Of a stretch of 64,000 nt of DNA, positions 30,381-64,000 are shown in pieces (position 1 is the first letter of the stretch; every line of letters starts with the position of its first letter). The position numbers and the translations under genes are program-made. The notes beneath the pieces are model-generated. The model made no database searches. It was not told the origin of the DNA and saw nothing but the letters and a program-made list of their open reading frames with translations. Source of the stretch: Thermoplasmatota archaeon (GTDB taxonomy: Archaea > Thermoplasmatota > Poseidoniia > Poseidoniales > Thalassarchaeaceae); NCBI GenBank assembly GCA_030828405.1, contig JAURCP010000002.1:70935-134934 (forward strand), read 5' to 3'.

Positions 30381-31852
<1,472 letters not shown>

Positions 31853-46946: not shown

Positions 46947-48704
46947 ATGAGGCACGTCGTCCAACATACAGAGTTAGTTGAGGGCTCTGTTGAAGCTCGC
47001 GCATACCAACTAGAAGCAGTTGATGAAGCACTTGCTGGATCAATGTTACTTGTGTTACCAACAGCTGCTGGAAAGACAGCCGTTTCTTGGATGTTAATCG
47101 CTGAAATATTACATTCAAAACAAGGTTGGGTGTTATTTATTGCACCTACAAGTGCGCTAGTTGATCAACATTTAAAAGATTTAAAAAAGGTAATGAAGAA
47201 TGTTGAAGCCATCTCTATAACTGGAAGTAATATTCCAAAAAAACGTGAGAAATTATGGAAAAACTCGAAAATTATTGTAGCTACGCCGCAGGTTGTACGT
47301 AATGATGTATTGAATGGTATTTTATCTTTGGAAGAATGTTCATTACTAATTCTAGATGAAGCACATCATTCCACAGGTAAACATGCCATGGTTCAATCGG
47401 CTGAGATGTTTTGTTTATCGGCAAAAAATGGACATATTTTGGGTGCTACTGCTAGTCCCGGTTCTAATTCAATGATTGTGAATGAGATTTGTAGTAGATT
47501 GAAAATTGAAAGAATTCATATCAGAAAAGCGAATGACCCCATGTTGAAAGATTACCTTTCAGGTTTAGAAATACAAGAAATATTAGTGAATGTCCCAGAA
47601 GAAATTAAGATGTTAGTTGCTCCATTAGAGTTATGGATTGGCAGTATTGTAGACAGAGAAAGAAGGCTAGGGAAGTATGTCAGAACGGGGCCGCCCTCAT
47701 TTGGAGGGCTTAAAGAAGCCATGAATAGAGCGCAACATTCGATTAAATTGGGTGATGTAAGAGGATATTCATCTGTATCCAATATAGCAACTGCAATGAC
47801 CTTGAATCACCTAATTAATCACCTTCTGACACAAGGAATTACTGCAGCAAGAGAATTTTTAGACGCCTCAGCCGATTTTAGTAACAATCCAAGTAAATCA
47901 ATTCAAAATTTCCACAAAGATAGAAGAATAATTGAATTGAAGGAATCATTATCTAAAATAGAAGAAATTCATAATAAAGTTGGCACTGTAAGAAGATTAG
48001 TTAGACATAGATTGAGAAGGGATCCTAATAGCAAGATTATCATTTTTGCATCTTTTAGGAATACTGTAGAATCTTTGGAAGAGGCATTGGTTGACTTAAA
48101 CGGCGTCAAATCAGTACAAATGATTGGACAGTCAGAAAGAGCTGGTAAAAAAGGTCTCAAACCAAAAGAGCAAATTGAAGTTCTAAATAAATTTAGAGAA
48201 GGAGAATACAATGTCCTTGTAGCAACCTCGGTTGCTGAAGAAGGGTTAGATATTCCGAGTGCTGACTTAGTCATATTTTATGAGCCAGTAGGTAGTGAAA
48301 TTAGAACAATTCAGAGAAGAGGAAGGACAGGAAGGCATAGAGAAGGAGAAGTAATCGTCCTTATTGCAGAAGGAACTCGTGACGAAAATATGAGATCTTC
48401 AGCCCAAAAGAAGGAAGAGAATATGTATAGCTCTGTTCAAAGAGTAAGGAGGAAGTTACCTAGAAAAAATCATCAAGACTTATCAAAAATACAGGGATTC
48501 TTTGTAATAGGAGATAATGAGACGATTTCTGCAGCTGATTACGTTAGAAGAGAAAGAGAACTTTATCGCCCCATAATGAAAAAAATAGACTTGAACGAAG
48601 TAGTCGTTACAGAAAAGGATGAAGCCATAAAGATAGAACCGGCGAAATATAGGCCAATAGGTCAAAGAGGATTGGAAGATTTTGATAGAGAAAGTGATGA
48701 TTAA
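46947..48704 (+). CDS. hef: Hef/FANCM (Mph1)-family SF2 helicase, helicase part only
   Basis: Motif I PTAAGKT, II LILDEAHH, III ATASPGS, VI QRRGRTGR, plus the family-typical helical insertion between the RecA lobes. The protein ends about 100 aa after motif VI with no ERCC4 nuclease motif. Confidence 0.8.
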   Translation: MRHVVQHTELVEGSVEARAYQLEAVDEALAGSMLLVLPTAAGKTAVSWMLIAEILHSKQGWVLFIAPTSALVDQHLKDLKKVMKNVEAISITGSNIPKKREKLWKNSKIIVATPQVVRNDVLNGILSLEECSLLILDEAHHSTGKHAMVQSAEMFCLSAKNGHILGATASPGSNSMIVNEICSRLKIERIHIRKANDPMLKDYLSGLEIQEILVNVPEEIKMLVAPLELWIGSIVDRERRLGKYVRTGPPSFGGLKEAMNRAQHSIKLGDVRGYSSVSNIATAMTLNHLINHLLTQGITAAREFLDASADFSNNPSKSIQNFHKDRRIIELKESLSKIEEIHNKVGTVRRLVRHRLRRDPNSKIIIFASFRNTVESLEEALVDLNGVKSVQMIGQSERAGKKGLKPKEQIEVLNKFREGEYNVLVATSVAEEGLDIPSADLVIFYEPVGSEIRTIQRRGRTGRHREGEVIVLIAEGTRDENMRSSAQKKEENMYSSVQRVRRKLPRKNHQDLSKIQGFFVIGDNETISAADYVRRERELYRPIMKKIDLNEVVVTEKDEAIKIEPAKYRPIGQRGLEDFDRESDD

Positions 48705-49561
48705 TCTCCAATTACCATTACCCTTGTCCTTAGTTGAGCGAATCTAGTATTATAATGCCCCAGAGCAAAAGTCAATATTTCACAAAGATGAATGACTGGA
48801 ATATTTGTTCTGAGACCAGTTCTCTGAGAGGCCTTTCCTTGATATATGTCCATGACAGAATGAGATAAGTTACAAGCACTAACAATTAATTGAGCACCCT
48901 CTGATTTAGCGTCGTTAAGTACTGAGGCAGATAATTTGAGGACTGTAGGCTCTTCAGATAACAAGCTAGGAGCACCCACACTTTGCATTCTTGAGTCCCA
49001 TTTAACTGGTTGACCACCTAAAGTTTTCATCAGCTGTTCCATATAATCTGGGTCATAAACGTCGTCACCACCGCAAAACCCATCTTGTTGCATATTGGGT
49101 CCATAATATGAAGCAACTGTGAAATCTATAGGGTTCACAACCATGGGTTTGACTTTATCGAGACCGATTTCATCTACGATGACATGTAATAAATGATTGA
49201 CAGAGGTTTCACCTGTAAATTCCATCCCACAAGTCTTAGCTAAAACATCGTTAATTTCTGCTAATAATATCGGATCAGACCTTAATTCCATCAGATCTTC
49301 AGAAAGATTTCCTGCTGTAGAAGCACAGGGAGTGATTATTTCCAGGCCGAGTGCCTCGGCCTGTGCAAAAATACGAGCATTTAGCGCTAATTGTAACTTT
49401 TTATTGGCTTGACGAATTATTCCTGCGCCACAACTCGTTGCACCTTCTAGAGGTGTGAGCTTAATCCCCAATGATTTAGCTAAAGGTATCATAGAGTCTG
49501 TAACTTCAGGAGAACCAGAGTGGGCTACATTTCCTGGGTGATAGGCATAATTCATTGGCAT
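48701..49561 (-). CDS. HdrB/SdhE/LutA-like protein with two degenerate CCG domains
   Basis: Colinear with HdrB-family proteins (YAYHPG.., LGIKL..CGAG, ARIFAQAE..GLEIITPC, IVSACN, IPVIHLCEIL), but most canonical Cys positions are substituted. The start overlaps the upstream stop (TAATG). Confidence 0.7.
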   Translation of the reverse strand: MPMNYAYHPGNVAHSGSPEVTDSMIPLAKSLGIKLTPLEGATSCGAGIIRQANKKLQLALNARIFAQAEALGLEIITPCASTAGNLSEDLMELRSDPILLAEINDVLAKTCGMEFTGETSVNHLLHVIVDEIGLDKVKPMVVNPIDFTVASYYGPNMQQDGFCGGDDVYDPDYMEQLMKTLGGQPVKWDSRMQSVGAPSLLSEEPTVLKLSASVLNDAKSEGAQLIVSACNLSHSVMDIYQGKASQRTGLRTNIPVIHLCEILTFALGHYNTRFAQLRTRVMVIGD

Positions 49562-51732
49562 TAGAACCTACCATCCATCTCATTGAAAATTGCTACAACT
49601 TCATGATGATTTTTCACTGAAGAATTAAACTGCCGTGGCATCTTTCCAAGACCTGCAGGGGGAGCTATCAAAGCCAAAATATCATTAATCATTTTACCAC
49701 CATTTCTTGTAAACCCAAGAACCATCCTAGCAGTGACTCCAGAAAATAGATTCCCTATAAGTCCAATTGGGCCTAAGACCTGCCTATACAATACAGTATC
49801 ATTTACTTTACCACTACTTTTGACAGTCACTGCATACCACCAAACATGTTTACCATGGCGTCCATCATACCCTGTTCTTGCTAAAGTTGATGTTTTACAA
49901 TTCAATAAAGAATCGTGGATTATAGTTCCCTTGCCCTGTCTCCTTATAGAAGATAAATCAGTTTCAGCCTTAATACCGATTGAAGAATCGAGAAGTGCTT
50001 CAATTTCTTTTTTCTTACTAGGTGAGATACGTGGATCATTCCTCCTTGCCCATGCATGAGATAATATCGATGGCCCCAAATATTCTTCTGAATGAGAAGT
50101 AGCATCTGAGGAAGAATGTAGAATTGGATAACTATGAATATCTGTTATTGAATGAAGTTCTGTTGCGATAAGAGGAGTCATAGAACCAAGAGCTCCTTGA
50201 GGGGTGTTCAATCCCTTTCTAGTCGCGGACACCATCCAAGGTTTACTTATCTCACGCTTTGTTTCAAATGCCCAATGATCTACAACTAAATCTCTAATTA
50301 CTTCAAAACCGCTTAATGGCTCTATCTTGATACTAATCCCACCATCACGAATTGGAGCGGCTAAGTCTAATCTTAGATTACCGGGTAAAACATGCCTTCC
50401 GTTAATAGTGATTGCAGTTGTGGGATCGTCTACGGTTCCATCACGGAAAGTTAATGACCCATCTTGGGTATTTTTCAGAGTCCTGAGGACTTCTAGGATA
50501 GACATTTGCCCAGGTAATGCACATATCCAAGTATCTTTACCTGTTGTTGATGAAGAGGGGTCATATCTGAAGATACTAATTTCTGCACGTATAGATTCGG
50601 ATTTCAAATCTGGAACTGTGAAGCCATCCTCACCTGAAGCACCAGTTGAATCCGAAGAAATTGAGTCTTTAATTGCCTGAACCATTTCTTCATGAAAGAG
50701 TCCCTCACCATCGACTGCCGCCATTGATGCAAGGGATTCTTCGGCCCAAACCTGAGAGATTTTATCGTAATCTACATCGCAATCTACTCTCTCGACCAAT
50801 CTTGTAGCACCTAATTCCTCAAATCTTTTATCCCATTCCTTACCAGATTCACAGAATAACTCATATGATGTATCTCCAAGTGCTAGAACAGAGAAATGTA
50901 CTCCATTTAGTAGCCCGGGCGACGCTGAAACTGCTTTTTGCCATAATTCCTCTGCATTATCTGGTTGCTCTCCTTCACCCCATGTTGAACAAATAATGAG
51001 AACTCTTTTCTTTGATGATAATGAATTTAAATCGAAACCATCCATGTCAGCAACTTCCGCATCTAAACCATAGGAAGTAGCTTGCTTTGCGAATTTTGCA
51101 GCAAGACCTTCTGCGTTACCCGATTGAGAACCAAAAAGAATTGTCATGGAACGATCGCCATCTGAAGAAATCTCAATAGAGGATTCTGGGTTTTCGGATT
51201 CTACCTTACTTACTGCGGCACCGGATGCATTATTTTTCACTTCTTCCACTAAACTTTCTTGGAACATTCCAGAGTCATCTACTGCACCCATCCTTGCAAG
51301 AGTCTCATCCATCCATTCTTTAGCAGGGGTTTCATAATCAACGTCACAATCTACGCGTTGATTGATTCTAAAACCACCCTTAGACTCTAACCAAGAATCC
51401 CATTCTTTACCTGACTCACAAAATAAATCATATGATGAATCACCTAAAGCTAGGACTGAAAAATTAACTCCCGACATAGATGGAGAATCATCAGCATTTG
51501 CTGAAATCCAAAGATCTTCAGCATTATCCGGTTGCTCTCCTTCTCCCCAAGTACTACAGCAAATCATAATTCTTTTTTGTCCTGCCATATCACTTATCTG
51601 GATTTCATCCATCCCTTTTACTGTTGCTTCAAGTCCGTATTTAGATGCTGCTTTTCCTATTTTAGAAGCCACATCTTCTGAGTTACCAGATTGAGAACCA
51701 AACAGCACAAGTAGAGAACGAACGGCCGACAT
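49561..51732 (-). CDS. Fusion protein: two tandem FMN-flavodoxin modules + cysteine-less SdhB/FrdB-like domain + C-terminal region of about 100 aa with no recognised family
   Basis: Flavodoxin motifs occur twice (LFGSQSGN, STWGEGEQPDNAE, FSVLALGD.SY.LFCESGKEWD, VDCDVDY). Residues ~381-622 align with SdhB (ISIFRYDP, GSLTFR, INGRHVL, EVIRDLVVD, KPWMV, YLGPSILSHAW, LLNCKTS). SD AGGTG lies 6 nt before the ATG. Confidence 0.75.
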   Translation of the reverse strand: MSAVRSLLVLFGSQSGNSEDVASKIGKAASKYGLEATVKGMDEIQISDMAGQKRIMICCSTWGEGEQPDNAEDLWISANADDSPSMSGVNFSVLALGDSSYDLFCESGKEWDSWLESKGGFRINQRVDCDVDYETPAKEWMDETLARMGAVDDSGMFQESLVEEVKNNASGAAVSKVESENPESSIEISSDGDRSMTILFGSQSGNAEGLAAKFAKQATSYGLDAEVADMDGFDLNSLSSKKRVLIICSTWGEGEQPDNAEELWQKAVSASPGLLNGVHFSVLALGDTSYELFCESGKEWDKRFEELGATRLVERVDCDVDYDKISQVWAEESLASMAAVDGEGLFHEEMVQAIKDSISSDSTGASGEDGFTVPDLKSESIRAEISIFRYDPSSSTTGKDTWICALPGQMSILEVLRTLKNTQDGSLTFRDGTVDDPTTAITINGRHVLPGNLRLDLAAPIRDGGISIKIEPLSGFEVIRDLVVDHWAFETKREISKPWMVSATRKGLNTPQGALGSMTPLIATELHSITDIHSYPILHSSSDATSHSEEYLGPSILSHAWARRNDPRISPSKKKEIEALLDSSIGIKAETDLSSIRRQGKGTIIHDSLLNCKTSTLARTGYDGRHGKHVWWYAVTVKSSGKVNDTVLYRQVLGPIGLIGNLFSGVTARMVLGFTRNGGKMINDILALIAPPAGLGKMPRQFNSSVKNHHEVVAIFNEMDGRF

Positions 51733-53527: not shown

Positions 53528-56500
53528 TTAAGATTCATTCTGTTGATTAATCCACGCTTGACCGTAATGTTCCCATTGTTCCATCGTCCAGCCCTCTGGA
53601 AGTCCTGATTCGGGAATCTCTGGCGCCCCTGAAACATTATTTTTCTCATCCGGCTTTAATTCTTCAACAAGAGTTTCTTGATTAGCCATTGGTGGCGGAG
53701 GTTGTTTGAATATTTCTTCTGAACCGCCATACATTGAATTTGCCACCTTGTCTTCCGAAGGTAATTCAGGAGCAGTTGGTAAACTAGGTGGAATGAAGGG
53801 ATTACCCTGAGAATATTCATAGTCGTCAAAAGTCGAGATTTCTTCTAAAGGTGAAGAAGCACTACGCATAATTCTGAAAGTTGCTAATAAGACTGCAACT
53901 AAAATTACTAAACCGACTAATATGAATATGATATTTCCTGCTAAACCTGCATATTCTCCGGCATTTGTCCCAGTATCTACTGGGTCGATCTTGAACATTT
54001 CAATACTAGCAGACATTGAAACCTTATCTATATCTCCATCAACATTGAGAGGCAATTTAAATATCTCTGAGTTATTGTTAAGATTTCTTAAATTCTCATC
54101 TGTAGCAGTTAAGAAAACTGTGATTTCCCTCATTGATTGGGCCTCTAAAACGAAGTTTTGATCTCCAGTATCAACCCTAGCATCAACTATATTGTAGAAA
54201 ATATTAGAGTTTCTATCAATGTCAGCCCTCAACAACTGAGCATCAGTTGGATGCTCATTCTTTACAGTAAAAGTAATTTCAATATCATTACCACCTTCTC
54301 TAATCTCAATTACGCCGGGAGGATTGAGTGTAATCCAACCTTGAGCACCGACCTGGAAATCTGCGTTTCCAGTACTAGAAATTGGAGATTCAGATGTCTG
54401 AGAAAGGACACTAGTAGCAGTCATCGAAATCGTTCTGTCACCGAAAGTCAATTGACCGAAAGAATATCTCACAGTAAGGTTGTGAGATTCGCCAGGAGAT
54501 ATATATGGAGTCTTACCATCATTGAGCCCTATAGCAGATGCAGAAACATCTGAAAAATGATCAAAAGAAATTTCAAAAGAATCTGCAACGTTTCCTCTAT
54601 TCCAAATACGCCAATTAACAGTTCTGGGGTCATCTCCACCACGGAAAACCTCATCTAACATATCTAAGTCTTCAACTTCAACTAAATTTGTTTGTGGTAC
54701 TGTCAACAACATTTGAGACGACATTTGATAGTCTGTATTCAATTTACTTGATGCAGTCAAGATTATTGAATAAGTTTCAGCCACAATTCCATATGGCATT
54801 GGGAGAAGCATAGTAACTGTGGTATCTCCACCAAAGGGATCAATCTCAAAGGTCTGTTCAGTATTCATTTCAAGACCTAATTTCCAATCAGATTGAATGC
54901 TTAAATCGAATGACTCAGGAGAATTACCATTATTAATTAACCTAATTTCTATTAATCTCAAAGAATTATCAGCAGGAGCAACTAGGTTGAAAACTTCTGG
55001 TTCAATGACTAACTCAGAATAAACTGGAACGACTATATTTACTTGCCACTCAGCAAGATATTGGGCGGGCGAAACGCCTGATGCAAGTAATGTAACCGAG
55101 TAAGTACCTGGAGAGACTTGAGGAGGAGCTGTAATTACAGCATCAATTAAGATATCATCAGTTAAAGCCAATTCAAGAGTAGAAACTTCTGAACCATTGT
55201 GATACCATTTAATATCGGCATTATCTACCCAGTCAATATTTGGGAAGGCCGCATCAAAACTCCAAGTTGCTATTTGATTACCAGTGTTTTTGAAAGACAT
55301 TGGTATCACTCCACTTGCTCCTGGTTCTAGAGTCGCGGCAGGGTTCTGCAATGTAACCTGCCTTAACTTACTTGAATAGGCAGGCATTACAGAAACAGGT
55401 AAACTGACAAATTCTTTTGAGAGGTTAGTAACGCCATCATTCACCCACACATTCCAGTATAAATCTTGAACTCCTGAACCATCAGGTATTGTAAGATTGA
55501 ACCATGTATCCATATAACTCAAAGCAGGTATCACTTTGCTGATTACATAATTGTCATGATCTACTGGATTGTTCGAATCAATACGTAATGGGAAATCATA
55601 CATCCATGAACGATTTGTAACTTCTGTGTAAAGTCTCAGAGTAATATCTACATATCCATTATTCTTAATATTACAGTACAAAGACGGAGGATTAGGGTCA
55701 GATGGAACAACTAAGTAAGAATTAGGAAGAGGATCATTACAATCAAAATCTAAAGTATATTGGGGTACTTTCTCAATAGCGAAAATAATGAATGAATCAA
55801 TTTGTATCCCTTGGCTTGCAAAAGAACTATTTGAATCAAATTTGAATGCTAAAGTATACTCAGCGGATGGATGTACTTCAGTCATATTCCAGACTAACTG
55901 AGACCATTCACCAGTAGTTGAGAGAGATTGAGATGAGAAATTATAGAACTCTTTAGTTCCACCTGAATCTGCTTCAATTCTCATTTCATCACCCGCAGCC
56001 ATTTCGCCCCAAGCATTTGTTACTAATTGAATAGTCAAGAAATCGAAACCCTTTAGTCGAATCTTACAGAAATTATTGCCATAATTCGAACTTACTGCAG
56101 AGTCTAGAGTACCTAATCCTAGACCATGACCGGGCTCATTACAATTGTCAAATGGAGTAAACCATCCCCACCAAAGTCTATCATGTCTGTTACTAGCATA
56201 ATTCGCACCCGGTCGAGAAACTCGCCAGTGATTTTCACCTTCTTCACTTGATGCGTTTTCCATTCTCCAATGGCCGAAACTATCTGGATTAGACGATAAT
56301 TGCCCAGTAGAATCATATCCTGCACCTACCCAAGTTGGTACATTTGCTTGTAGTTGATTTGTACAATCAATCACACTATCTCCATCTACATCGCCACAAA
56401 AGCCATTTTCCATTGGATCGTTCCAAATTGCGACTGGAATTAATCGATCTAATTCATTATTAGATTCCGTATCATCAGCTAATCCGCCATCAACTATACC

Positions 56501-56968
56501 TCTAAGTATAATCCCTCCTTCTAAGTATCCATTTTCATCTAATAAACTGTGGGCAGAACTAGGTGTCCAAACAAAGTTTGCCTTCAAAGATTGGAAACCT
56601 GAAAGAAGCATACTGACATTATATTCTGCTATCATGAAGCCGACAGGGTGCCAAATCTGGAGATACCCTTCTGCAGCTGCTGGTTGACCAGAAGAACCTG
56701 CCTGAGTATAGGTCACATTAATTTGAATTGTTTCATCTCTCATGATATATTCAACTATTGATCCATCTGGCTGAGTCCATTCTTTAGCATCTCTTGTTTG
56801 GTTTCCAATTTCTATTGACGTGATCTCGAAATCAATCAAAGATTTAGGCCCTATGTCGTCCCTATTTTCATTTTCATCTAATTCAGAATTAATAAATAAA
56901 GGTGATAAACTCATCATAATCAAAATTGACAACACAAAGATTGGAGTTAGCATACGCATGATTAACAA
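53528..56968 (-). CDS. Very large surface protein: signal peptide, ectodomain of about 1000 aa, one C-terminal TM anchor, Pro-rich cytoplasmic tail
   Basis: N-terminal hydrophobic signal (PIFVLSILIMMSLSPLF), many N-x-S/T sequons, TM LAGNIIFILVGLVILVAVLLATF, and a 112-aa tail. No catalytic motif recognised. Confidence 0.7.
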   Translation of the reverse strand: MLIMRMLTPIFVLSILIMMSLSPLFINSELDENENRDDIGPKSLIDFEITSIEIGNQTRDAKEWTQPDGSIVEYIMRDETIQINVTYTQAGSSGQPAAAEGYLQIWHPVGFMIAEYNVSMLLSGFQSLKANFVWTPSSAHSLLDENGYLEGGIILRGIVDGGLADDTESNNELDRLIPVAIWNDPMENGFCGDVDGDSVIDCTNQLQANVPTWVGAGYDSTGQLSSNPDSFGHWRMENASSEEGENHWRVSRPGANYASNRHDRLWWGWFTPFDNCNEPGHGLGLGTLDSAVSSNYGNNFCKIRLKGFDFLTIQLVTNAWGEMAAGDEMRIEADSGGTKEFYNFSSQSLSTTGEWSQLVWNMTEVHPSAEYTLAFKFDSNSSFASQGIQIDSFIIFAIEKVPQYTLDFDCNDPLPNSYLVVPSDPNPPSLYCNIKNNGYVDITLRLYTEVTNRSWMYDFPLRIDSNNPVDHDNYVISKVIPALSYMDTWFNLTIPDGSGVQDLYWNVWVNDGVTNLSKEFVSLPVSVMPAYSSKLRQVTLQNPAATLEPGASGVIPMSFKNTGNQIATWSFDAAFPNIDWVDNADIKWYHNGSEVSTLELALTDDILIDAVITAPPQVSPGTYSVTLLASGVSPAQYLAEWQVNIVVPVYSELVIEPEVFNLVAPADNSLRLIEIRLINNGNSPESFDLSIQSDWKLGLEMNTEQTFEIDPFGGDTTVTMLLPMPYGIVAETYSIILTASSKLNTDYQMSSQMLLTVPQTNLVEVEDLDMLDEVFRGGDDPRTVNWRIWNRGNVADSFEISFDHFSDVSASAIGLNDGKTPYISPGESHNLTVRYSFGQLTFGDRTISMTATSVLSQTSESPISSTGNADFQVGAQGWITLNPPGVIEIREGGNDIEITFTVKNEHPTDAQLLRADIDRNSNIFYNIVDARVDTGDQNFVLEAQSMREITVFLTATDENLRNLNNNSEIFKLPLNVDGDIDKVSMSASIEMFKIDPVDTGTNAGEYAGLAGNIIFILVGLVILVAVLLATFRIMRSASSPLEEISTFDDYEYSQGNPFIPPSLPTAPELPSEDKVANSMYGGSEEIFKQPPPPMANQETLVEELKPDEKNNVSGAPEIPESGLPEGWTMEQWEHYGQAWINQQNES

Positions 56969-57128
56969 GTCTGTTCGGTATAGAAATCGTGTAAGAAGGT
57001 TGGGGGTAAAAGTTCGTAACTAATTTAATCAAGGTAGTAATTGAATAATAGAAAATACCGATGAAAACTATGTCTGAAGATTGATAATCAATGAAGGACT
57101 TATGGATTAATTGAGTTGCGTGCAGAAT

Positions 57129-58220
57129 ATGGAGGGTAGAGCCAGTCTTTCTCATAGATTGGGATTAGCACTGATTTTACTTATTCAGATTACAATTATA
57201 CCAATAATTGGTTTCTCTCTAACATATTTAATCGAGATAGATAGAGAAAATTTTGGGATATCGATAAGAACTGAATTATTTCAATGGATTTTGATTTCGG
57301 GATTGACTTATGGAATTATTTGTCTAGCCATGGCATTAATCATTGGAGGATATCGACCATCCCCTGTTGTTGAAAGAGGAGGTTGGATTGCCTCTCTCGG
57401 ACTTAGTAGAAGAAAGTATGATCCGGAACTTATTGATAGGTCAAAAATGGCTGCTTACTCAAGTCCATATGGGAAAATGAGTAGATTAGTAGCTAAGAGA
57501 ATAAAGAATGATCATTCAGAACTATTTGCAGTACATGGAGGGTTGCAATTACTTGCAGTTCCATCACAAGTACTGTTAATTTCAATTCCATTAATAATTA
57601 TGGAAGGAATTCCAGATGACTTGATTAGGAAAGATAGTGCATTCGAGTTAGGTATGATTGGCTATATTATTGGCTTATGGGTGTCATTTAGAGTCCAACC
57701 AGTTATTTCCTTACAATTTATTGAATACGCAGCGATTTTTAGAAAAATTCTATGGAGAATAACTAAAATTTCTTGGATTCTACCAGTGATTATTTTGTGG
57801 GCATGTGCAAGAATAATACTTCAATTTTCATTAACATCATTAGGAATTGATATTTCACAATGGCATGATGTTCAATTAGAAGGCGTGATTTTGAACTTTG
57901 TAGCACCTGAAGCAGAAGTCCCACAAACAGCAATTATTGATTTCTTAGTAGCGATTTCTGTGTTGCCCATGGCAGCATTTACTACAATCAGTGTATTAGG
58001 TGGATCAAATGGGCTTTCCCAATGGATGAAGGACAAAGAGGATTATTTAGAAAATCTGTCTCAGCATAGCCTTCCTGAACCAAAAGAAAATAAAGAAATA
58101 ATGACTCAAAATATAGAAGAAATTGATACTAATGAAAAAAGTTTTGATATTATTTCTACAGATGAAAAAGACGATGAAGGTTCGAGAATGATTGATGTGC
58201 CATTCGATTTATTTGATTAA
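57129..58220 (+). CDS. Hypothetical polytopic membrane protein with acidic C-terminal tail
   Basis: Multiple hydrophobic helices. Start set at the first ATG (MEGRASL). The ORF-track TTG is at 57111. No family recognised. Confidence 0.5.
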   Translation: MEGRASLSHRLGLALILLIQITIIPIIGFSLTYLIEIDRENFGISIRTELFQWILISGLTYGIICLAMALIIGGYRPSPVVERGGWIASLGLSRRKYDPELIDRSKMAAYSSPYGKMSRLVAKRIKNDHSELFAVHGGLQLLAVPSQVLLISIPLIIMEGIPDDLIRKDSAFELGMIGYIIGLWVSFRVQPVISLQFIEYAAIFRKILWRITKISWILPVIILWACARIILQFSLTSLGIDISQWHDVQLEGVILNFVAPEAEVPQTAIIDFLVAISVLPMAAFTTISVLGGSNGLSQWMKDKEDYLENLSQHSLPEPKENKEIMTQNIEEIDTNEKSFDIISTDEKDDEGSRMIDVPFDLFD

Positions 58221-62078: not shown

Positions 62079-64000
62079 TTAGTTAATCATTAAGGGTCCA
62101 ACGACTATACTTAGTAATACCCACATCCCTAGAATTGCACATGTTAACCCCCATGCTCGCGGTCTCAAACCAACGGTTAATGAGCCGAAAATCCTTGTCA
62201 AATCCCCAATTATTGCTAAAGTAGTTTTGAAAATTACAACTACCAAGCCAGCCATGATCATATATCCTATAAAAAATAGTATACAAACAAATAATCCAAT
62301 TAATCCTGACCTCCCCACTGCGCCAATGGCTTGAGGTATTGTACTTGGCATTCTAAGCCAAAGTAGCCATGCAACCCAGAGACCTAGATACATATCATCC
62401 AAAAATTTATTTTCTTTCCACCAAACTCTATATGGTTCAGGCAATTTAGAATAAAAGAATCTTCCAGAAATTTCGATTTCTCTAATTCCACCTCTTAATA
62501 GCATTGAAAGTCCGTGATAAAACAGTATCAAACTTAATACAATCTCTACAAAAATCCAGTAAGAACCTAGACCTAATATTGATAATAATGATACGGGTAA
62601 TGCCCACAAAGCAAAACCAATACTTGAAGAAAATAATGTCAGGACTAAACCTGCACCAGGAATAAGAGGAGAATCTGGTACTTCATATTTCTCTCCTCTA
62701 GGCATTGCTAAAACTATTAGTGGTAAGAAGGTTGTACCAAAAATTAGCCCTATTAGGTCTAAAGGCAGATTTCCTGAACCAAGATAGGATGATTGAACAG
62801 CATCCTCTATCGATTGAGAAGACATAGTTCCTGGGCTCCATGTTGAAATAAATCCTGCTGAATCAATCACAAAAACTGAGTCGGATGCTCTGCTGGGGAA
62901 AGATTTCCCGACAGATGAGTCTGCGTTATCAATTAGAACTGGCCAACTCCCATTAATTTGATTAACTAAGTTGTTTAAATCTAGACTATTGACACCCTCG
63001 CCTGTTGCAATTTGGATAAAGGCGACATTATCGTCAATCACTTTTTGGGCAATTTCGAAATCTACCCTCTGAATTTCAGCATTTGGAGAACTTGGAGTAA
63101 ATAGCCCAATCACAATAGCATCATGATTTGACAATAAATCACTAAATTCGTATAGTTGTTGATCTTCATCATGCTCATATAATGAGAATGAGGGGGCTGC
63201 TCCCTCAAATCTTGGTTCTTCGAAATCAATATCAGGCAAATACAAAGCTGGACCTAGAGTTGTCAACGCGAGTAATAAAATCACTCCATATGCAGGTAAA
63301 GGTAGTAGTGCTTCTTTCATTGAAATACCAATCCAGAAAATAATACTAAGAGGTATCAAAATAGCGGCCCAAGTTCCGTTGAATAAAGATGGATCTGGTT
63401 CTAGGACTTCAAACCTAAGAACGCCTACCAAATCACAAGTTTCTCCAGGATCCTGATCGGATAATTTGTAACAACTATCTATCATGTACTTTCCTGCAGA
63501 AAGTCGACTCTGAGATGACCAAGTCAATACTGTACGATTCATTTCATCAATTCTTATTCCATGAGGAGTTTCAAAATGATCTAATCTAGTATCTTCATCT
63601 GCATTTCCATGTATCATATCTTCCCATTCTACTGGCCCGATTACTTCTAACACCTGAGAAATATAGAGGTCATTTCCCCAAGGAGAATTAGGTGTAAACT
63701 CAACTCTAATAATTCCATTAGGGTCTACTGTCTGATCCAACTCAGGATAAATTAATTCACCTTTAAATTCTATTCCAGTGGTTGCGTCATATGTATCCCA
63801 CCATAATACTCCTGTCTGAGCACAGTCATGCATTACATCGATTTTTAGTCCGATTAAATCTCCCTTGAGAAGGCTGACATTTACATCATTCGCATCGATT
63901 AAAAATTCATGTGCCAGTGTAAATGATTCTTCCATAACGATAGAATTAGTTTGGGCATCGGAAAGAATTTGATTATTCCCCAATGAGAAAGAAACAGAAA
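62079..64000 (-). CDS. Large membrane protein with extracytoplasmic N-domain, Cys-less TlpA/thioredoxin-like domain and polytopic C-terminal domain; 5' end beyond window
   Basis: The reading frame stays open to nt 64000, and the track start at 63983 is only a TTG. The thioredoxin-fold pattern has TPSSP in place of WCxxC. The C-terminal half has about 8 hydrophobic helices. Confidence 0.6.
   Translation of the reverse strand, partial: SVSFSLGNNQILSDAQTNSIVMEESFTLAHEFLIDANDVNVSLLKGDLIGLKIDVMHDCAQTGVLWWDTYDATTGIEFKGELIYPELDQTVDPNGIIRVEFTPNSPWGNDLYISQVLEVIGPVEWEDMIHGNADEDTRLDHFETPHGIRIDEMNRTVLTWSSQSRLSAGKYMIDSCYKLSDQDPGETCDLVGVLRFEVLEPDPSLFNGTWAAILIPLSIIFWIGISMKEALLPLPAYGVILLLALTTLGPALYLPDIDFEEPRFEGAAPSFSLYEHDEDQQLYEFSDLLSNHDAIVIGLFTPSSPNAEIQRVDFEIAQKVIDDNVAFIQIATGEGVNSLDLNNLVNQINGSWPVLIDNADSSVGKSFPSRASDSVFVIDSAGFISTWSPGTMSSQSIEDAVQSSYLGSGNLPLDLIGLIFGTTFLPLIVLAMPRGEKYEVPDSPLIPGAGLVLTLFSSSIGFALWALPVSLLSILGLGSYWIFVEIVLSLILFYHGLSMLLRGGIREIEISGRFFYSKLPEPYRVWWKENKFLDDMYLGLWVAWLLWLRMPSTIPQAIGAVGRSGLIGLFVCILFFIGYMIMAGLVVVIFKTTLAIIGDLTRIFGSLTVGLRPRAWGLTCAILGMWVLLSIVVGPLMIN

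What the first reader, a model, noticed from the sequence alone, without database searches (positions are those of the whole stretch)
49867..50592. SdhB-like domain retains the backbone signature but only 1 of about 11 Fe-S ligand cysteines
Compared by eye with E. coli SdhB as I recall it. The 2Fe-2S block SCREGVCGSDGLNMNGKNGLAC corresponds here to DGTVDDPTTAITINGRHVLPGN, with no Cys. The CxxCxxCxxxCP block (CILCACCSTSCP) corresponds to SITDIHSYPILH, with no Cys. The second block (CHSIMNCVSVCP) corresponds to IHDSLLNCKTST, with one Cys left. Flanking non-ligand signatures are well kept (IYRYNP/IFRYDP, VIRDLVVD identical, KPYL/KPWM, GPAGLLAAYRF/GPSILSHAWAR). Selective loss of ligands with a retained scaffold argues for a functional Fe-S-free derivative rather than random decay.
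Basis: partly seen in the sequence, partly recalled or inferred. Interest (0 to 1): 0.65.

Follow-up and report, generated by a model that had tools for sequence, protein, structure and literature searches.

The report
Iron-sulfur-free SdhB/SdhE pair with flavodoxins
A core gene pair of the abundant ocean archaea Marine Group II descends from two subunits of succinate dehydrogenase, has lost nearly all the cysteines that hold iron-sulfur clusters, has gained fused flavodoxin domains, and is still under strong selection, so it is a working protein of unknown function rather than a decaying gene.

Summary
Window 49867-50592 encodes residues 381-622 of a 723-residue protein (49561-51732, minus strand). 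Its architecture is flavodoxin, flavodoxin, flexible linker, then an SdhB homologue.

- **Homology:** it is significant (Pfam Fer2_3 E 1.7e-10; hhalign 97%; Foldseek TM 0.8 to solved SdhB/FrdB). It runs the whole length of "long" type-E SdhB proteins, including their C-terminal extension.
- **Ligands:** a proper alignment shows 0 of 12 ligand cysteines, not 1 of 11.
- **Family:** 89 orthologues have no ligand-column cysteine, apart from one sequence at one column.
- **Distribution:** relatives occur in 311 species-level genomes. The 80 examined are all Poseidoniales.
- **Selection:** dN/dS is 0.02-0.10.
- **Partner:** the gene is translationally coupled (TAATG) to an SdhE/HdrB-like gene that keeps 3 of 10 canonical cysteines. 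Divergent relatives keep one complete CCG motif.
- **Context:** no sdhA lies nearby.
- **N-terminal modules:** they vary between ferredoxin and flavodoxin across the family.

The most likely reading is a cluster-free scaffold carrying tethered electron carriers. The acceptor and the function are unknown. Databases label the pair cysJ and sdhC.

The parts
49561..51732 (-). Whole ORF, 723 aa: flavodoxin, flavodoxin, linker, cluster-free long-type SdhB homologue (called SdhB* here)
   Evidence: ORF list. Pfam Flavodoxin_1 x2 (212 bits) plus Fer2_3. NCBIfam. Orthologues in 311 species genomes.
51289..51717 (-). Flavodoxin domain 1 (aa 6-148), of the CysJ/MioC FMN-domain type
   Evidence: Pfam and NCBIfam hits. 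The GSQSGNSE, CSTWGEGE and LGDSSYDLFC motifs are visible in the translation. dN/dS 0.025-0.11.
50722..51147 (-). Flavodoxin domain 2 (aa 196-337). It is the only flavodoxin in the common 551-aa orthologues.
   Evidence: It is about 50-57% identical to domain 1.
50590..50721 (-). Linker (aa 338-381) between flavodoxin and the SdhB-like body
   Evidence: pLDDT is below 50 for model residues 171-188 (protein aa 360-377). The two-domain model has pTM 0.36 against 0.72 for the body alone.
50266..50589 (-). SdhB* N-terminal domain (aa 382-489), homologous to the 2Fe-2S ferredoxin-like domain. Ligand columns are T433, D436, T439 and G451. The only conserved cysteine, C404, is not at a ligand column.
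   Evidence: Pfam Fer2_3 covers aa 385-489. Alignments and ligand census. Codon check.
49873..50265 (-). SdhB* helical domain (aa 490-620), homologous to the domain that binds clusters S2 and S3. Ligand columns are I532, Y535, L538, S542, E590, L593, I596 and a gap.
   Evidence: Foldseek match spans about 245 columns.
49564..49872 (-). C-terminal extension (aa 621-723), collinear with the extension of 317-330-aa type-E SdhB proteins. It is the most conserved part of the family (HGKHVWWY, KSSGKVNDT, GFTRxGG, APPAGxGKMP, NHHEVVAIFNExDGRF).
   Evidence: Alignment with PRK12577/PRK12576-type SdhBs. Conservation. dN/dS 0.016-0.07. Part of it is modelled with low confidence.
48701..49561 (-). Partner gene, 286 aa: SdhE/HdrB-like double-CCG protein (SdhE*) that keeps 3 of 10 canonical cysteines (C44, C79, C230) plus a family-specific conserved C163
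   Evidence: TIGR03288 E 3.6e-37 and MFR_anch_SdhE E 3.7e-33, both below cut-off. HdrB 8rvv_B E 2.9e-32. Cysteine census. Adjacent in all related loci.
49559..49563 (-). Overlapping stop and start (TAATG) joining SdhB* and SdhE*
   Evidence: Sequence read...GGT AGG TTC TAA TG CCA ATG...

Best explanation
The finding lies in a two-gene module, conserved across Poseidoniales, that descends from the sdhB-sdhE pair of a type-E (non-classical) succinate:quinone oxidoreductase.

**Shown**
- The SdhB-derived protein keeps the whole SdhB fold and the type-E C-terminal extension.
- It has replaced all 12 cluster-ligand cysteines.
- Its partner SdhE* has lost the second CCG cluster site in every member looked at. 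It has lost the first site in the clade that includes this window.
- Both genes are under strong purifying selection and are translationally coupled.
- The N-terminus always carries one or two small one-electron carrier domains: flavodoxin, ferredoxin or both.

**Inferred mechanism**
- SdhB* and SdhE* form a stable cluster-free heterodimer that acts as a docking scaffold.
- The conserved extension is the likely interface.
- The three-cluster wire has been functionally replaced by the fused FMN or [4Fe-4S] carrier on a flexible linker.
- That carrier takes electrons from a donor, plausibly 2-oxoacid:ferredoxin oxidoreductases or an NAD(P)H-flavodoxin reductase.
- It delivers them to an acceptor site on SdhE*. 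This site is a CCG-1 cluster in divergent relatives and the conserved cysteines C44, C79, C163 and C230 here.
- The acceptor is either a quinone, as proposed for SdhE, or a disulfide, as in HdrB.
- The net effect is a low-iron electron-transfer module.
For: - **Homology and fold:**
- **Ligand loss:** 0 of 12 ligand cysteines in the window and across 89 orthologues. In the representative search, family members have 0-1 and nearly all full-length canonical SdhBs have 10-12 (four have 5-8), and none lies in between at family-level E-values.
- **Selection:** dN/dS is 0.02-0.10 for the SdhB* segments and 0.025-0.06 for SdhE*.
- **Coupling and synteny:** the gene pair is adjacent in all related loci, including the 38%-identical P0134.
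- **Origin:** the nearest canonical relatives sit in sdhA-sdhB-sdhE operons beside TCA-cycle genes. SdhE* is 31-39% identical to those SdhE proteins and shares their indels.
- **Variable carriers:** architectures seen are Fld-Fld, Fld, Fd-Fld, Fd and Fd-Fd.
- **Stepwise loss in the partner:** CCG-1 keeps 5 of 5 cysteines in the partners of P0123, P0129, P0131 and P0134. It keeps 1-2 of 5 in the window clade. CCG-2 keeps 1 of 5 in all.
- **Flexible tether:** the linker pLDDT is below 50 and the two-domain pTM is 0.36.
- **No anchor helix:** neither protein has a transmembrane-grade hydrophobic segment.
- **Proposed role of SdhE:** it has been suggested as a monotopic anchor and quinone site (PMC2754724).
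Against: - No biochemical or expression data exist.
- No donor or acceptor has been identified.
- The SdhB*-SdhE* complex is inferred only from ancestry, adjacency and start/stop overlap.
- P0013 (ferredoxin only) pairs with a CCG-1-degenerate partner, so carrier type and partner cluster loss do not correlate simply.
- The low two-domain pTM is weak evidence, because that alignment was shallow.
- I could not inspect model coordinates. Cavity filling and cysteine geometry are therefore untested.
- Conserved neighbours (thermosome, Hef helicase, ribosomal operon) give no functional clue.
Confidence: 0.5

Rival explanations
1. Iron-free alternative complex II. SdhB*/SdhE* still bind the flavoprotein SdhA. 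The CysJ-type FMN domain swings between the FAD of SdhA and a quinone site at SdhE*, replacing the S1-S2-S3 cluster wire. MGII would then oxidise succinate with little or no Fe-S in the complex.
For: - Both proteins derive from type-E SdhB/SdhE.
- The flavodoxin domains are closest to the FMN domain of diflavin reductases, which work by domain swinging (CysJ TIGR01931, E 8.7e-83; the swinging mechanism is established knowledge).
- Tully 2019 lists a single KO-annotated sdhC cluster and no sdhD in the MGII core genome. [quoted passage not shown]
Against: - No sdhA was found in the window or in 1.70 Mb of related loci.
- Tully's table lists a separate sdhB cluster in 90-92% of genomes. The fusion itself appears there as cysJ in 99-100%. 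A canonical SdhB therefore probably exists.
- Ferredoxin-only members (P0131, P0013) have no FMN domain.
Confidence: 0.15
2. Non-redox pseudoenzyme scaffold. The SdhB*/SdhE* body has a purely structural or regulatory role, such as a membrane tether, an assembly factor or a localisation platform. The fused flavodoxin or ferredoxin acts as an ordinary soluble-type carrier for other enzymes and does not pass electrons to SdhE*.
For: - Cofactor ligands are completely lost in SdhB* and nearly so in SdhE* of this clade.
- Highly conserved but poorly modelled segments are typical of protein-protein interfaces.
- No catalytic partner is encoded nearby.
Against: - Divergent relatives retain a complete five-cysteine CCG-1 motif. 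That argues for a redox site in the ancestor of the family.
- Four cysteines stay nearly invariant in SdhE* of this clade.
- Every family member seen intact at its N-terminus keeps a carrier domain fused, which suggests the carrier works on the scaffold.
Confidence: 0.25
3. The protein still binds Fe-S clusters or other metals through non-cysteine ligands (Asp, Ser, Glu, His).
For: - Asp436, Ser542 and Glu590 are invariant or nearly so at former ligand columns.
- E. coli SdhB itself uses Asp63 at one 2Fe-2S position (sequence plus established knowledge).
Against: - The S1 site offers at most one candidate ligand and the S3 site at most two.
- The S2 site offers none (I/F, Y/A, L, gap).
- The other columns hold Gly, Thr, Leu and Ile. 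No known cluster is held that way.
Confidence: 0.04
4. Chance similarity, misalignment or a decaying pseudogene.
For: The scores against curated SdhB equivalog models are below their cut-offs.
Against: - Pfam is above its cut-off, and hhalign, PDB phmmer and Foldseek all agree.
- The reading frame is intact in 89 species.
- dN/dS is about 0.05.
Confidence: 0.01

Closest known systems
Type-E (non-classical) succinate:quinone oxidoreductase subunits SdhB and SdhE (Sulfolobus and Acidianus SdhABEF; Campylobacter and Wolinella SdhABE/MFR; NCBIfam PRK12577, PRK12576, MFR_FeS_SdhB, MFR_anch_SdhE)
   Same: - SdhB* is collinear over its full length, including the C-terminal extension specific to long SdhBs.
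- A 286-aa double-CCG gene lies immediately downstream, as in sdhA-sdhB-sdhE operons.
- There are no transmembrane helices.
   Different: - None of the 12 cluster cysteines of SdhB is present.
- SdhE* keeps 3 of 10 cysteines.
- There is no sdhA in the operon or nearby.
- One or two flavodoxin and/or ferredoxin domains are fused to the N-terminus.
- Scores fall far below every curated cut-off.
HdrB (heterodisulfide reductase subunit B; PDB 8rvv, 5odc) and thiol:fumarate reductase TfrB (SdhB-like plus HdrB-like fusion)
   Same: - The full-length match to HdrB has E 2.9e-32.
- TfrB shows that an SdhB module and a CCG module can work together without a membrane anchor (PMC2754724).
   Different: - HdrB needs 2 x 5 cysteines for two non-cubane [4Fe-4S] clusters. 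Here only 3 canonical cysteines remain.
- SdhE* shares its indels with SdhE rather than with HdrB.
- Neither a Pfam nor an NCBIfam scan of the pair turned up anything else from CoM/CoB metabolism.
FMN (flavodoxin-like) domain of diflavin reductases (CysJ, cytochrome P450 reductase) and short flavodoxins (MioC)
   Same: Both N-terminal domains match Flavodoxin_1 strongly and match CysJ positions 59-204.
   Different: - There is no FAD-binding or NADPH-binding domain, so the existing cysJ / sulfite reductase flavoprotein label is wrong.
- TIGR01931 scores 279 bits against a cut-off of 668.

Membership tests
SdhB/FrdB iron-sulfur subunit (Pfam Fer2_3; TIGR00384 dhsB) | Sequence and fold homology over the 2Fe-2S-type domain and the helical cluster domain | tested here: met
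   Fer2_3 41.3 bits against a cut-off of 27. hhalign 97%. Foldseek E 1e-14 with TM 0.8.
SdhB/FrdB iron-sulfur subunit (Pfam Fer2_3; TIGR00384 dhsB) | Four ligands of the [2Fe-2S] cluster S1 (E. coli C55, C60, D63, C75) | tested here: not met
   The window has T433, D436, T439 and G451. Only 1 of 89 orthologues has a cysteine, at one column.
SdhB/FrdB iron-sulfur subunit (Pfam Fer2_3; TIGR00384 dhsB) | Four cysteine ligands of the [4Fe-4S] cluster S2 (C149, C152, C155, C216) | tested here: not met
   I532, Y535, L538 and a gap. No cysteine in 89 orthologues.
SdhB/FrdB iron-sulfur subunit (Pfam Fer2_3; TIGR00384 dhsB) | Three or four cysteine ligands of cluster S3 (C159, C206, [209], C212) | tested here: not met
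   S542, E590, L593 and I596. No cysteine in 89 orthologues.
SdhB/FrdB iron-sulfur subunit (Pfam Fer2_3; TIGR00384 dhsB) | Curated whole-protein score cut-off of the NCBIfam models | tested here: not met
   TIGR00384 54.4 bits against 88. PRK12576 49.9 against 344. PRK12577 37.5 against 349.
SdhB/FrdB iron-sulfur subunit (Pfam Fer2_3; TIGR00384 dhsB) | Encoded with the flavoprotein subunit SdhA/FrdA | tested here: not met
   tblastn with three SdhA queries found nothing in the window or in 92 related loci, 1.70 Mb in total. Whether SdhA is encoded elsewhere in the genome could not be tested.
Type-E long SdhB (PRK12577/PRK12576) | C-terminal extension of about 80-100 aa beyond the classical SdhB, and an adjacent CCG-type sdhE gene | tested here: met
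   Collinear alignment through to the C-terminus. SdhE-like gene adjacent in all loci. Canonical relatives sit in sdhA-sdhB-sdhE operons.
SdhE / HdrB double-CCG proteins (Pfam CCG; TIGR03288; MFR_anch_SdhE) | Two CXnCCGXmCXXC motifs, ten cysteines in all | tested here: not met
   The window has N S C C T | P S V C S, so 3 of 10. Divergent relatives keep 5 of 5 in motif 1 and 1 of 5 in motif 2.
SdhE / HdrB double-CCG proteins (Pfam CCG; TIGR03288; MFR_anch_SdhE) | Full-length sequence homology | tested here: met
   Pfam CCG 38.1 bits against 20.6. HdrB 8rvv_B E 2.9e-32 over residues 4-268. The NCBIfam equivalog cut-offs are not reached.
Flavodoxin (Pfam Flavodoxin_1) | Flavodoxin fold with FMN phosphate-binding and isoalloxazine-binding loops | tested here: met
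   212 bits for two copies. The motifs are conserved across the family. FMN binding itself cannot be tested here.
CysJ, sulfite reductase (NADPH) flavoprotein (current database label) | FAD-binding and NADPH-binding ferredoxin-reductase-type domains after the FMN domain | tested here: not met
   Only profile positions 59-204 of 597 match. The score is 279 bits against a cut-off of 668. No FAD or NAD domain appears in Pfam.

The most novel reading that the evidence does not exclude
Marine Group II archaea are among the most abundant heterotrophs of the iron-poor surface ocean. In this reading they have rebuilt a complex-II-type electron-transfer module so that it needs almost no iron.
- The three Fe-S clusters of SdhB and the two of SdhE were deleted stepwise.
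- They were replaced by a tethered, swinging FMN (flavodoxin) domain.
- The result is either an Fe-S-free succinate dehydrogenase or a new ferredoxin/flavodoxin:quinone (or disulfide) oxidoreductase. Such an enzyme would connect 2-oxoacid oxidation to the respiratory chain.
Probability: 0.3. Interest if true: 0.85.

Novelty: new variant of a known kind. Interest (0 to 1): 0.68.

Why it matters
SdhB is a textbook three-cluster electron wire. I found no description of a homologue that keeps the fold and is strongly selected yet has none of its ligands.

The family is a near-universal core gene pair of Poseidoniales. Published reconstructions list the pair as cysJ / sulfite reductase flavoprotein and as the SDH cytochrome b subunit sdhC (PMC6741140; probably also the PMC6336850 supplement). 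Pathway calls for sulfite reduction, and possibly for complex II, in these archaea are therefore affected.

The family also offers a natural series of stages in cofactor loss:
1. ferredoxin with an intact CCG-1 motif;
2. ferredoxin plus flavodoxin;
3. flavodoxin only, with the CCG-1 motif lost.

That series makes cofactor replacement and iron-sparing evolution directly testable. It may also point to the unknown route by which reduced ferredoxin or flavodoxin enters the respiratory chain of aerobic archaea.

Tried and rejected
**Canonical SdhA/SdhB in MGII.** I relied on Tully 2019 supplementary file 12. It lists separate sdhA and sdhB clusters but was not checked at sequence level.

**Taxonomy of the nearest canonical SdhBs.** Cluster look-up returned almost no organism names, only one Nitrospirota.

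**Literature.** None of the others found a description of a cysteine-less SdhB or of this fusion. Pereira 2019 noted only the gene order, with automatic names. The archaeal fusion survey PMC11237513 does not mention the fusion in the passages matched for \"succinate dehydrogenase\", \"Poseidoniales\" and \"flavodoxin\". PMC13096325 was irrelevant.

**Two-domain AF2 model.** The flavodoxin 2 plus SdhB* model gave pTM 0.36 and no confident docking. That is only weak evidence for a flexible tether.

**Intermediate forms.** The apparent divergent family members P0138, P0141 and P0127 look like frameshifted fragments (garbled C-terminal sequence) and were discarded.

**Functional neighbours.** Synteny (thermosome, pair, Hef helicase, ribosomal L3 operon) is frozen even in 38%-identical relatives and gives no clue.

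**Carrier type versus partner cluster loss.** A simple correlation of ferredoxin with an intact CCG-1 motif was rejected because of P0013 and P0126.

**PDB 3kwl.** This H. pylori hypothetical protein matched the fold weakly and was not pursued.
Full report
**Where the finding sits.** The window is archaeal. It carries a 16S rRNA gene at 30381-31852, a thermosome gene, SecY and the large ribosomal-protein operon. Its closest relatives are Poseidoniales (Marine Group II); those with a family-level name are Thalassarchaeaceae (MGIIb). The interval 49867-50592 lies on the minus strand inside ORF 49561-51732 (723 aa) and encodes residues 381-622. Pfam and NCBIfam give this architecture:
- flavodoxin, aa 6-148;
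- flavodoxin, aa 196-337;
- a linker of about 44 residues;
- an SdhB-like region starting at aa 382.

**Is the SdhB similarity real?** Yes.
- Pfam Fer2_3 scores 41.3 bits against a gathering cut-off of 27, E 1.7e-10.
- TIGR00384 gives E 1.1e-14, below its cut-off.
- phmmer against PDB sequences finds E. coli SdhB at 1.4e-6 and FrdB at 1.1e-5.
- A family profile aligns to E. coli SdhB residues 2-181 with hhalign probability 97%, E 7e-11.
- An AlphaFold2 model of aa 375-723 has mean pLDDT 80 and pTM 0.72. It superposes on more than 30 solved SdhB/FrdB chains with Foldseek E about 1e-14, target-normalised TM 0.78-0.85 and rmsd about 3 Å.

A search of 1.84 billion representative proteins found the family itself and then canonical SdhB proteins. 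The best-matching canonical ones have about 310-350 residues. They match the "long" SdhB models PRK12577 and PRK12576. A MAFFT alignment shows that the last 349 residues of the window protein are collinear with these long SdhBs right to the C-terminus. For example, G-x-RH...F...G-x-LNE in the canonical proteins corresponds to GRHGKHVWWY...SSGKVNDT here, and GK-x-P corresponds to GKMP. The "unknown" C-terminal 100 residues are therefore the type-E SdhB extension. Two of the canonical relatives lie in sdhA-sdhB-sdhE operons next to TCA-cycle genes. That is the defining arrangement of type-E or non-classical succinate:quinone oxidoreductases (PMC2754724).

**Ligand columns.** I mapped them through E. 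coli SdhB, whose sequence came from NC_000913. The long SdhBs have cysteine at all 12 columns. The window protein reads as follows:

| Cluster | E. coli ligand positions | Window residues |
|---|---|---|
| S1 [2Fe-2S] | C55, C60, D63, C75 | T433, D436, T439, G451 |
| S2 [4Fe-4S] | C149, C152, C155, C216 | I532, Y535, L538, gap |
| S3 | C159, C206, [209], C212 | S542, E590, L593, I596 |

Across 89 orthologues there is no cysteine at any of these columns, apart from one sequence at column 63. Several replacements are fixed: Ser542 and Glu590 at 100%, Asp436 at 99%, Thr439 at 98%, Gly451 at 97% and Ile596 at 96%. The only conserved cysteine in the SdhB-like part is C404, which is not a ligand position.

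The first 4Fe-4S block was shifted by three residues. The second was misplaced by about 16 residues. The "one remaining Cys" (C612) is therefore not a ligand and is alanine in most orthologues. The true count is 0 of 12.

In the representative search, family members carry 0-1 ligand-column cysteines and nearly all full-length canonical hits carry 10-12; four (P0172, P0184, P0210, P0260) carry 5-8. None of these lies among the family-level E-values, so there are no true intermediates.

**Not decay.** I computed Nei-Gojobori dN/dS between the window and orthologues. dS is 0.2 for L005 and about 1-2.5 for L006-L016, where it is usable; the table below takes its ranges from L005-L012.

| Segment | dN/dS |
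|---|---|
| SdhB-like N-domain | 0.02-0.08 |
| Helical domain | 0.035-0.105 |
| C-terminal extension | 0.016-0.06 |
| Flavodoxin domains | 0.01-0.06 |
| Downstream gene | 0.03-0.06 |
| Thermosome (control) | 0.007-0.03 |

The genome-collection scan found relatives in 311 species-level genomes. The 80 loci returned are all Poseidoniales.

**The partner gene.** Immediately downstream lies a 286-aa protein (48701-49561). Its start overlaps the upstream stop as TAATG. It is homologous over its full length to HdrB (PDB 8rvv_B, E 2.9e-32) and to SdhE (MFR_anch_SdhE, E 3.7e-33). It is 31-39% identical to SdhE from the canonical operons and shares their indels.

Of the ten cysteines in the two CXnCCGXmCXXC motifs it keeps three: C44, C79 and C230. 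It also has a family-specific conserved C163. The gene is adjacent in every one of the 92 related loci.

In the most divergent relatives the first CCG motif is complete, with 5 of 5 cysteines. These are the partners of P0123, P0129, P0131 and P0134, whose SdhB* is 38-44% identical to the window's. The second motif is degenerate in all. The losses were therefore stepwise:
1. the SdhB clusters and the CCG-2 site were lost in the family ancestor;
2. the CCG-1 site was lost later, in the clade that contains this window.

**Variable N-terminal carriers.** Family members carry these N-terminal arrangements:
- Fld-Fld (window, P0121, P0125);
- Fld (the common 551-aa form);
- Fd-Fld (P0122, P0123, P0126, P0129);
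- Fd (P0131, P0013);
- Fd-Fd (P0134).

Every family member seen intact at its N-terminus carries a small one-electron carrier there; N-terminally truncated fragments cannot be judged. The linker is modelled with pLDDT below 50 and the two-domain model has pTM 0.36. That is weakly consistent with a flexible tether. Neither protein has a transmembrane-grade hydrophobic stretch.

**Context.** No SdhA is encoded in the window or in 1.70 Mb of related loci. The local gene order is thermosome, pair, Hef-type helicase, rpL3 operon. It is frozen across the whole family and gives no functional hint. Pereira et al. 2019 saw this gene order. [quoted passage not shown] Tully 2019's core-gene table lists the following (PMC6336850 supplement):
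- cysJ in 99-100% of MGII genomes, almost certainly this fusion;
- separate single clusters for sdhB (90-92%) and sdhC (92-96%);
- sdhA in 98%;
- no sdhD.

[quoted passage not shown] A canonical SdhB therefore probably exists elsewhere, and SdhB* is a paralogue. I could not verify this at sequence level.

**Interpretation.**
- *Shown:* the pair is a conserved, selected, cluster-free derivative of a type-E SdhB/SdhE pair. It is fused to flavodoxin or ferredoxin modules, and the partner lost its clusters stepwise.
- *Inferred:* the two proteins form a heterodimeric scaffold. The highly conserved but poorly modelled GFTRxGG...APPAGxGKMP segment is a candidate interface. The fused carrier replaces the internal cluster wire and shuttles electrons to a site on SdhE*. 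The acceptor would be a quinone, as proposed for SdhE, or a disulfide, as in HdrB.
- *Not excluded:* an iron-free alternative complex II with SdhA, or a purely structural pseudoenzyme role.
- *Effectively excluded:* cluster binding through non-cysteine ligands, because the residues at the S2 columns are hydrophobic or absent, and chance similarity or decay.

**Novelty.** The genes are present in databases under misleading names (cysJ, flavodoxin domain-containing protein, sdhC, HdrB family). It is a new variant of a known kind, with unknown function.

Noticed in passing
window 46947-48704 (+); compare L085 12628-15273, L087 10829-13735, L093 7079-9702: The Hef-type helicase next to the pair is 585 aa here and has helicase domains only. 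In divergent relatives it is 857-968 aa with a C-terminal ERCC4 nuclease plus HhH domains. In L093 it is split into two genes. The nuclease domain seems to have been lost in this clade.
   Followed up: partly
window 53528-56968 (-): This 1146-aa protein has an N-terminal hydrophobic leader, a C-terminal transmembrane segment and no Pfam hit. A gene of similar size (1101-1156 aa) with no recorded Pfam hit sits at the same position in every related locus whose called genes were listed and that extends that far. It may be a conserved surface or S-layer-type protein.
   Followed up: no
window 30381-31852 (-) and whole window: The 16S rRNA gene stands alone. Rfam found no 23S or 5S within the window and ARAGORN found no tRNA in 64 kb. 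The GC peak at 30-32 kb is the rRNA gene.
   Followed up: no
window 51289-51717 and 50722-51147 (-): The two flavodoxin domains are a tandem duplication, about 50-57% identical to each other. One-flavodoxin (551 aa) and two-flavodoxin (about 720 aa) forms both occur among close relatives, so the copy number has changed more than once.
   Followed up: partly
proteins P0172, P0210, P0184, P0260 (sequences): Unrelated SdhB-like representatives have partial ligand loss. P0172 has C-D-D-S at the 2Fe-2S site. P0210 keeps only 5 of 12 ligand cysteines. P0184 and P0260 lack the S3 ligands. Cluster loss in SdhB homologues may be more widespread than assumed.
   Followed up: no
AF2 model m7e6a78777f07 against PDB 3kwl: A 498-aa hypothetical protein from Helicobacter pylori with a solved structure matched the SdhB-like model weakly (E 1e-4, TMq 0.41). 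It might be another non-canonical SdhB-fold protein.
   Followed up: no
window 57111-58220 (+) and 62079-63983 (-): Two sizeable ORFs (369 and 634 aa) have no Pfam hit. An unannotated gene of 365 aa occupies the position corresponding to the first one in L002-L004; no counterpart of the second was looked for.
   Followed up: no
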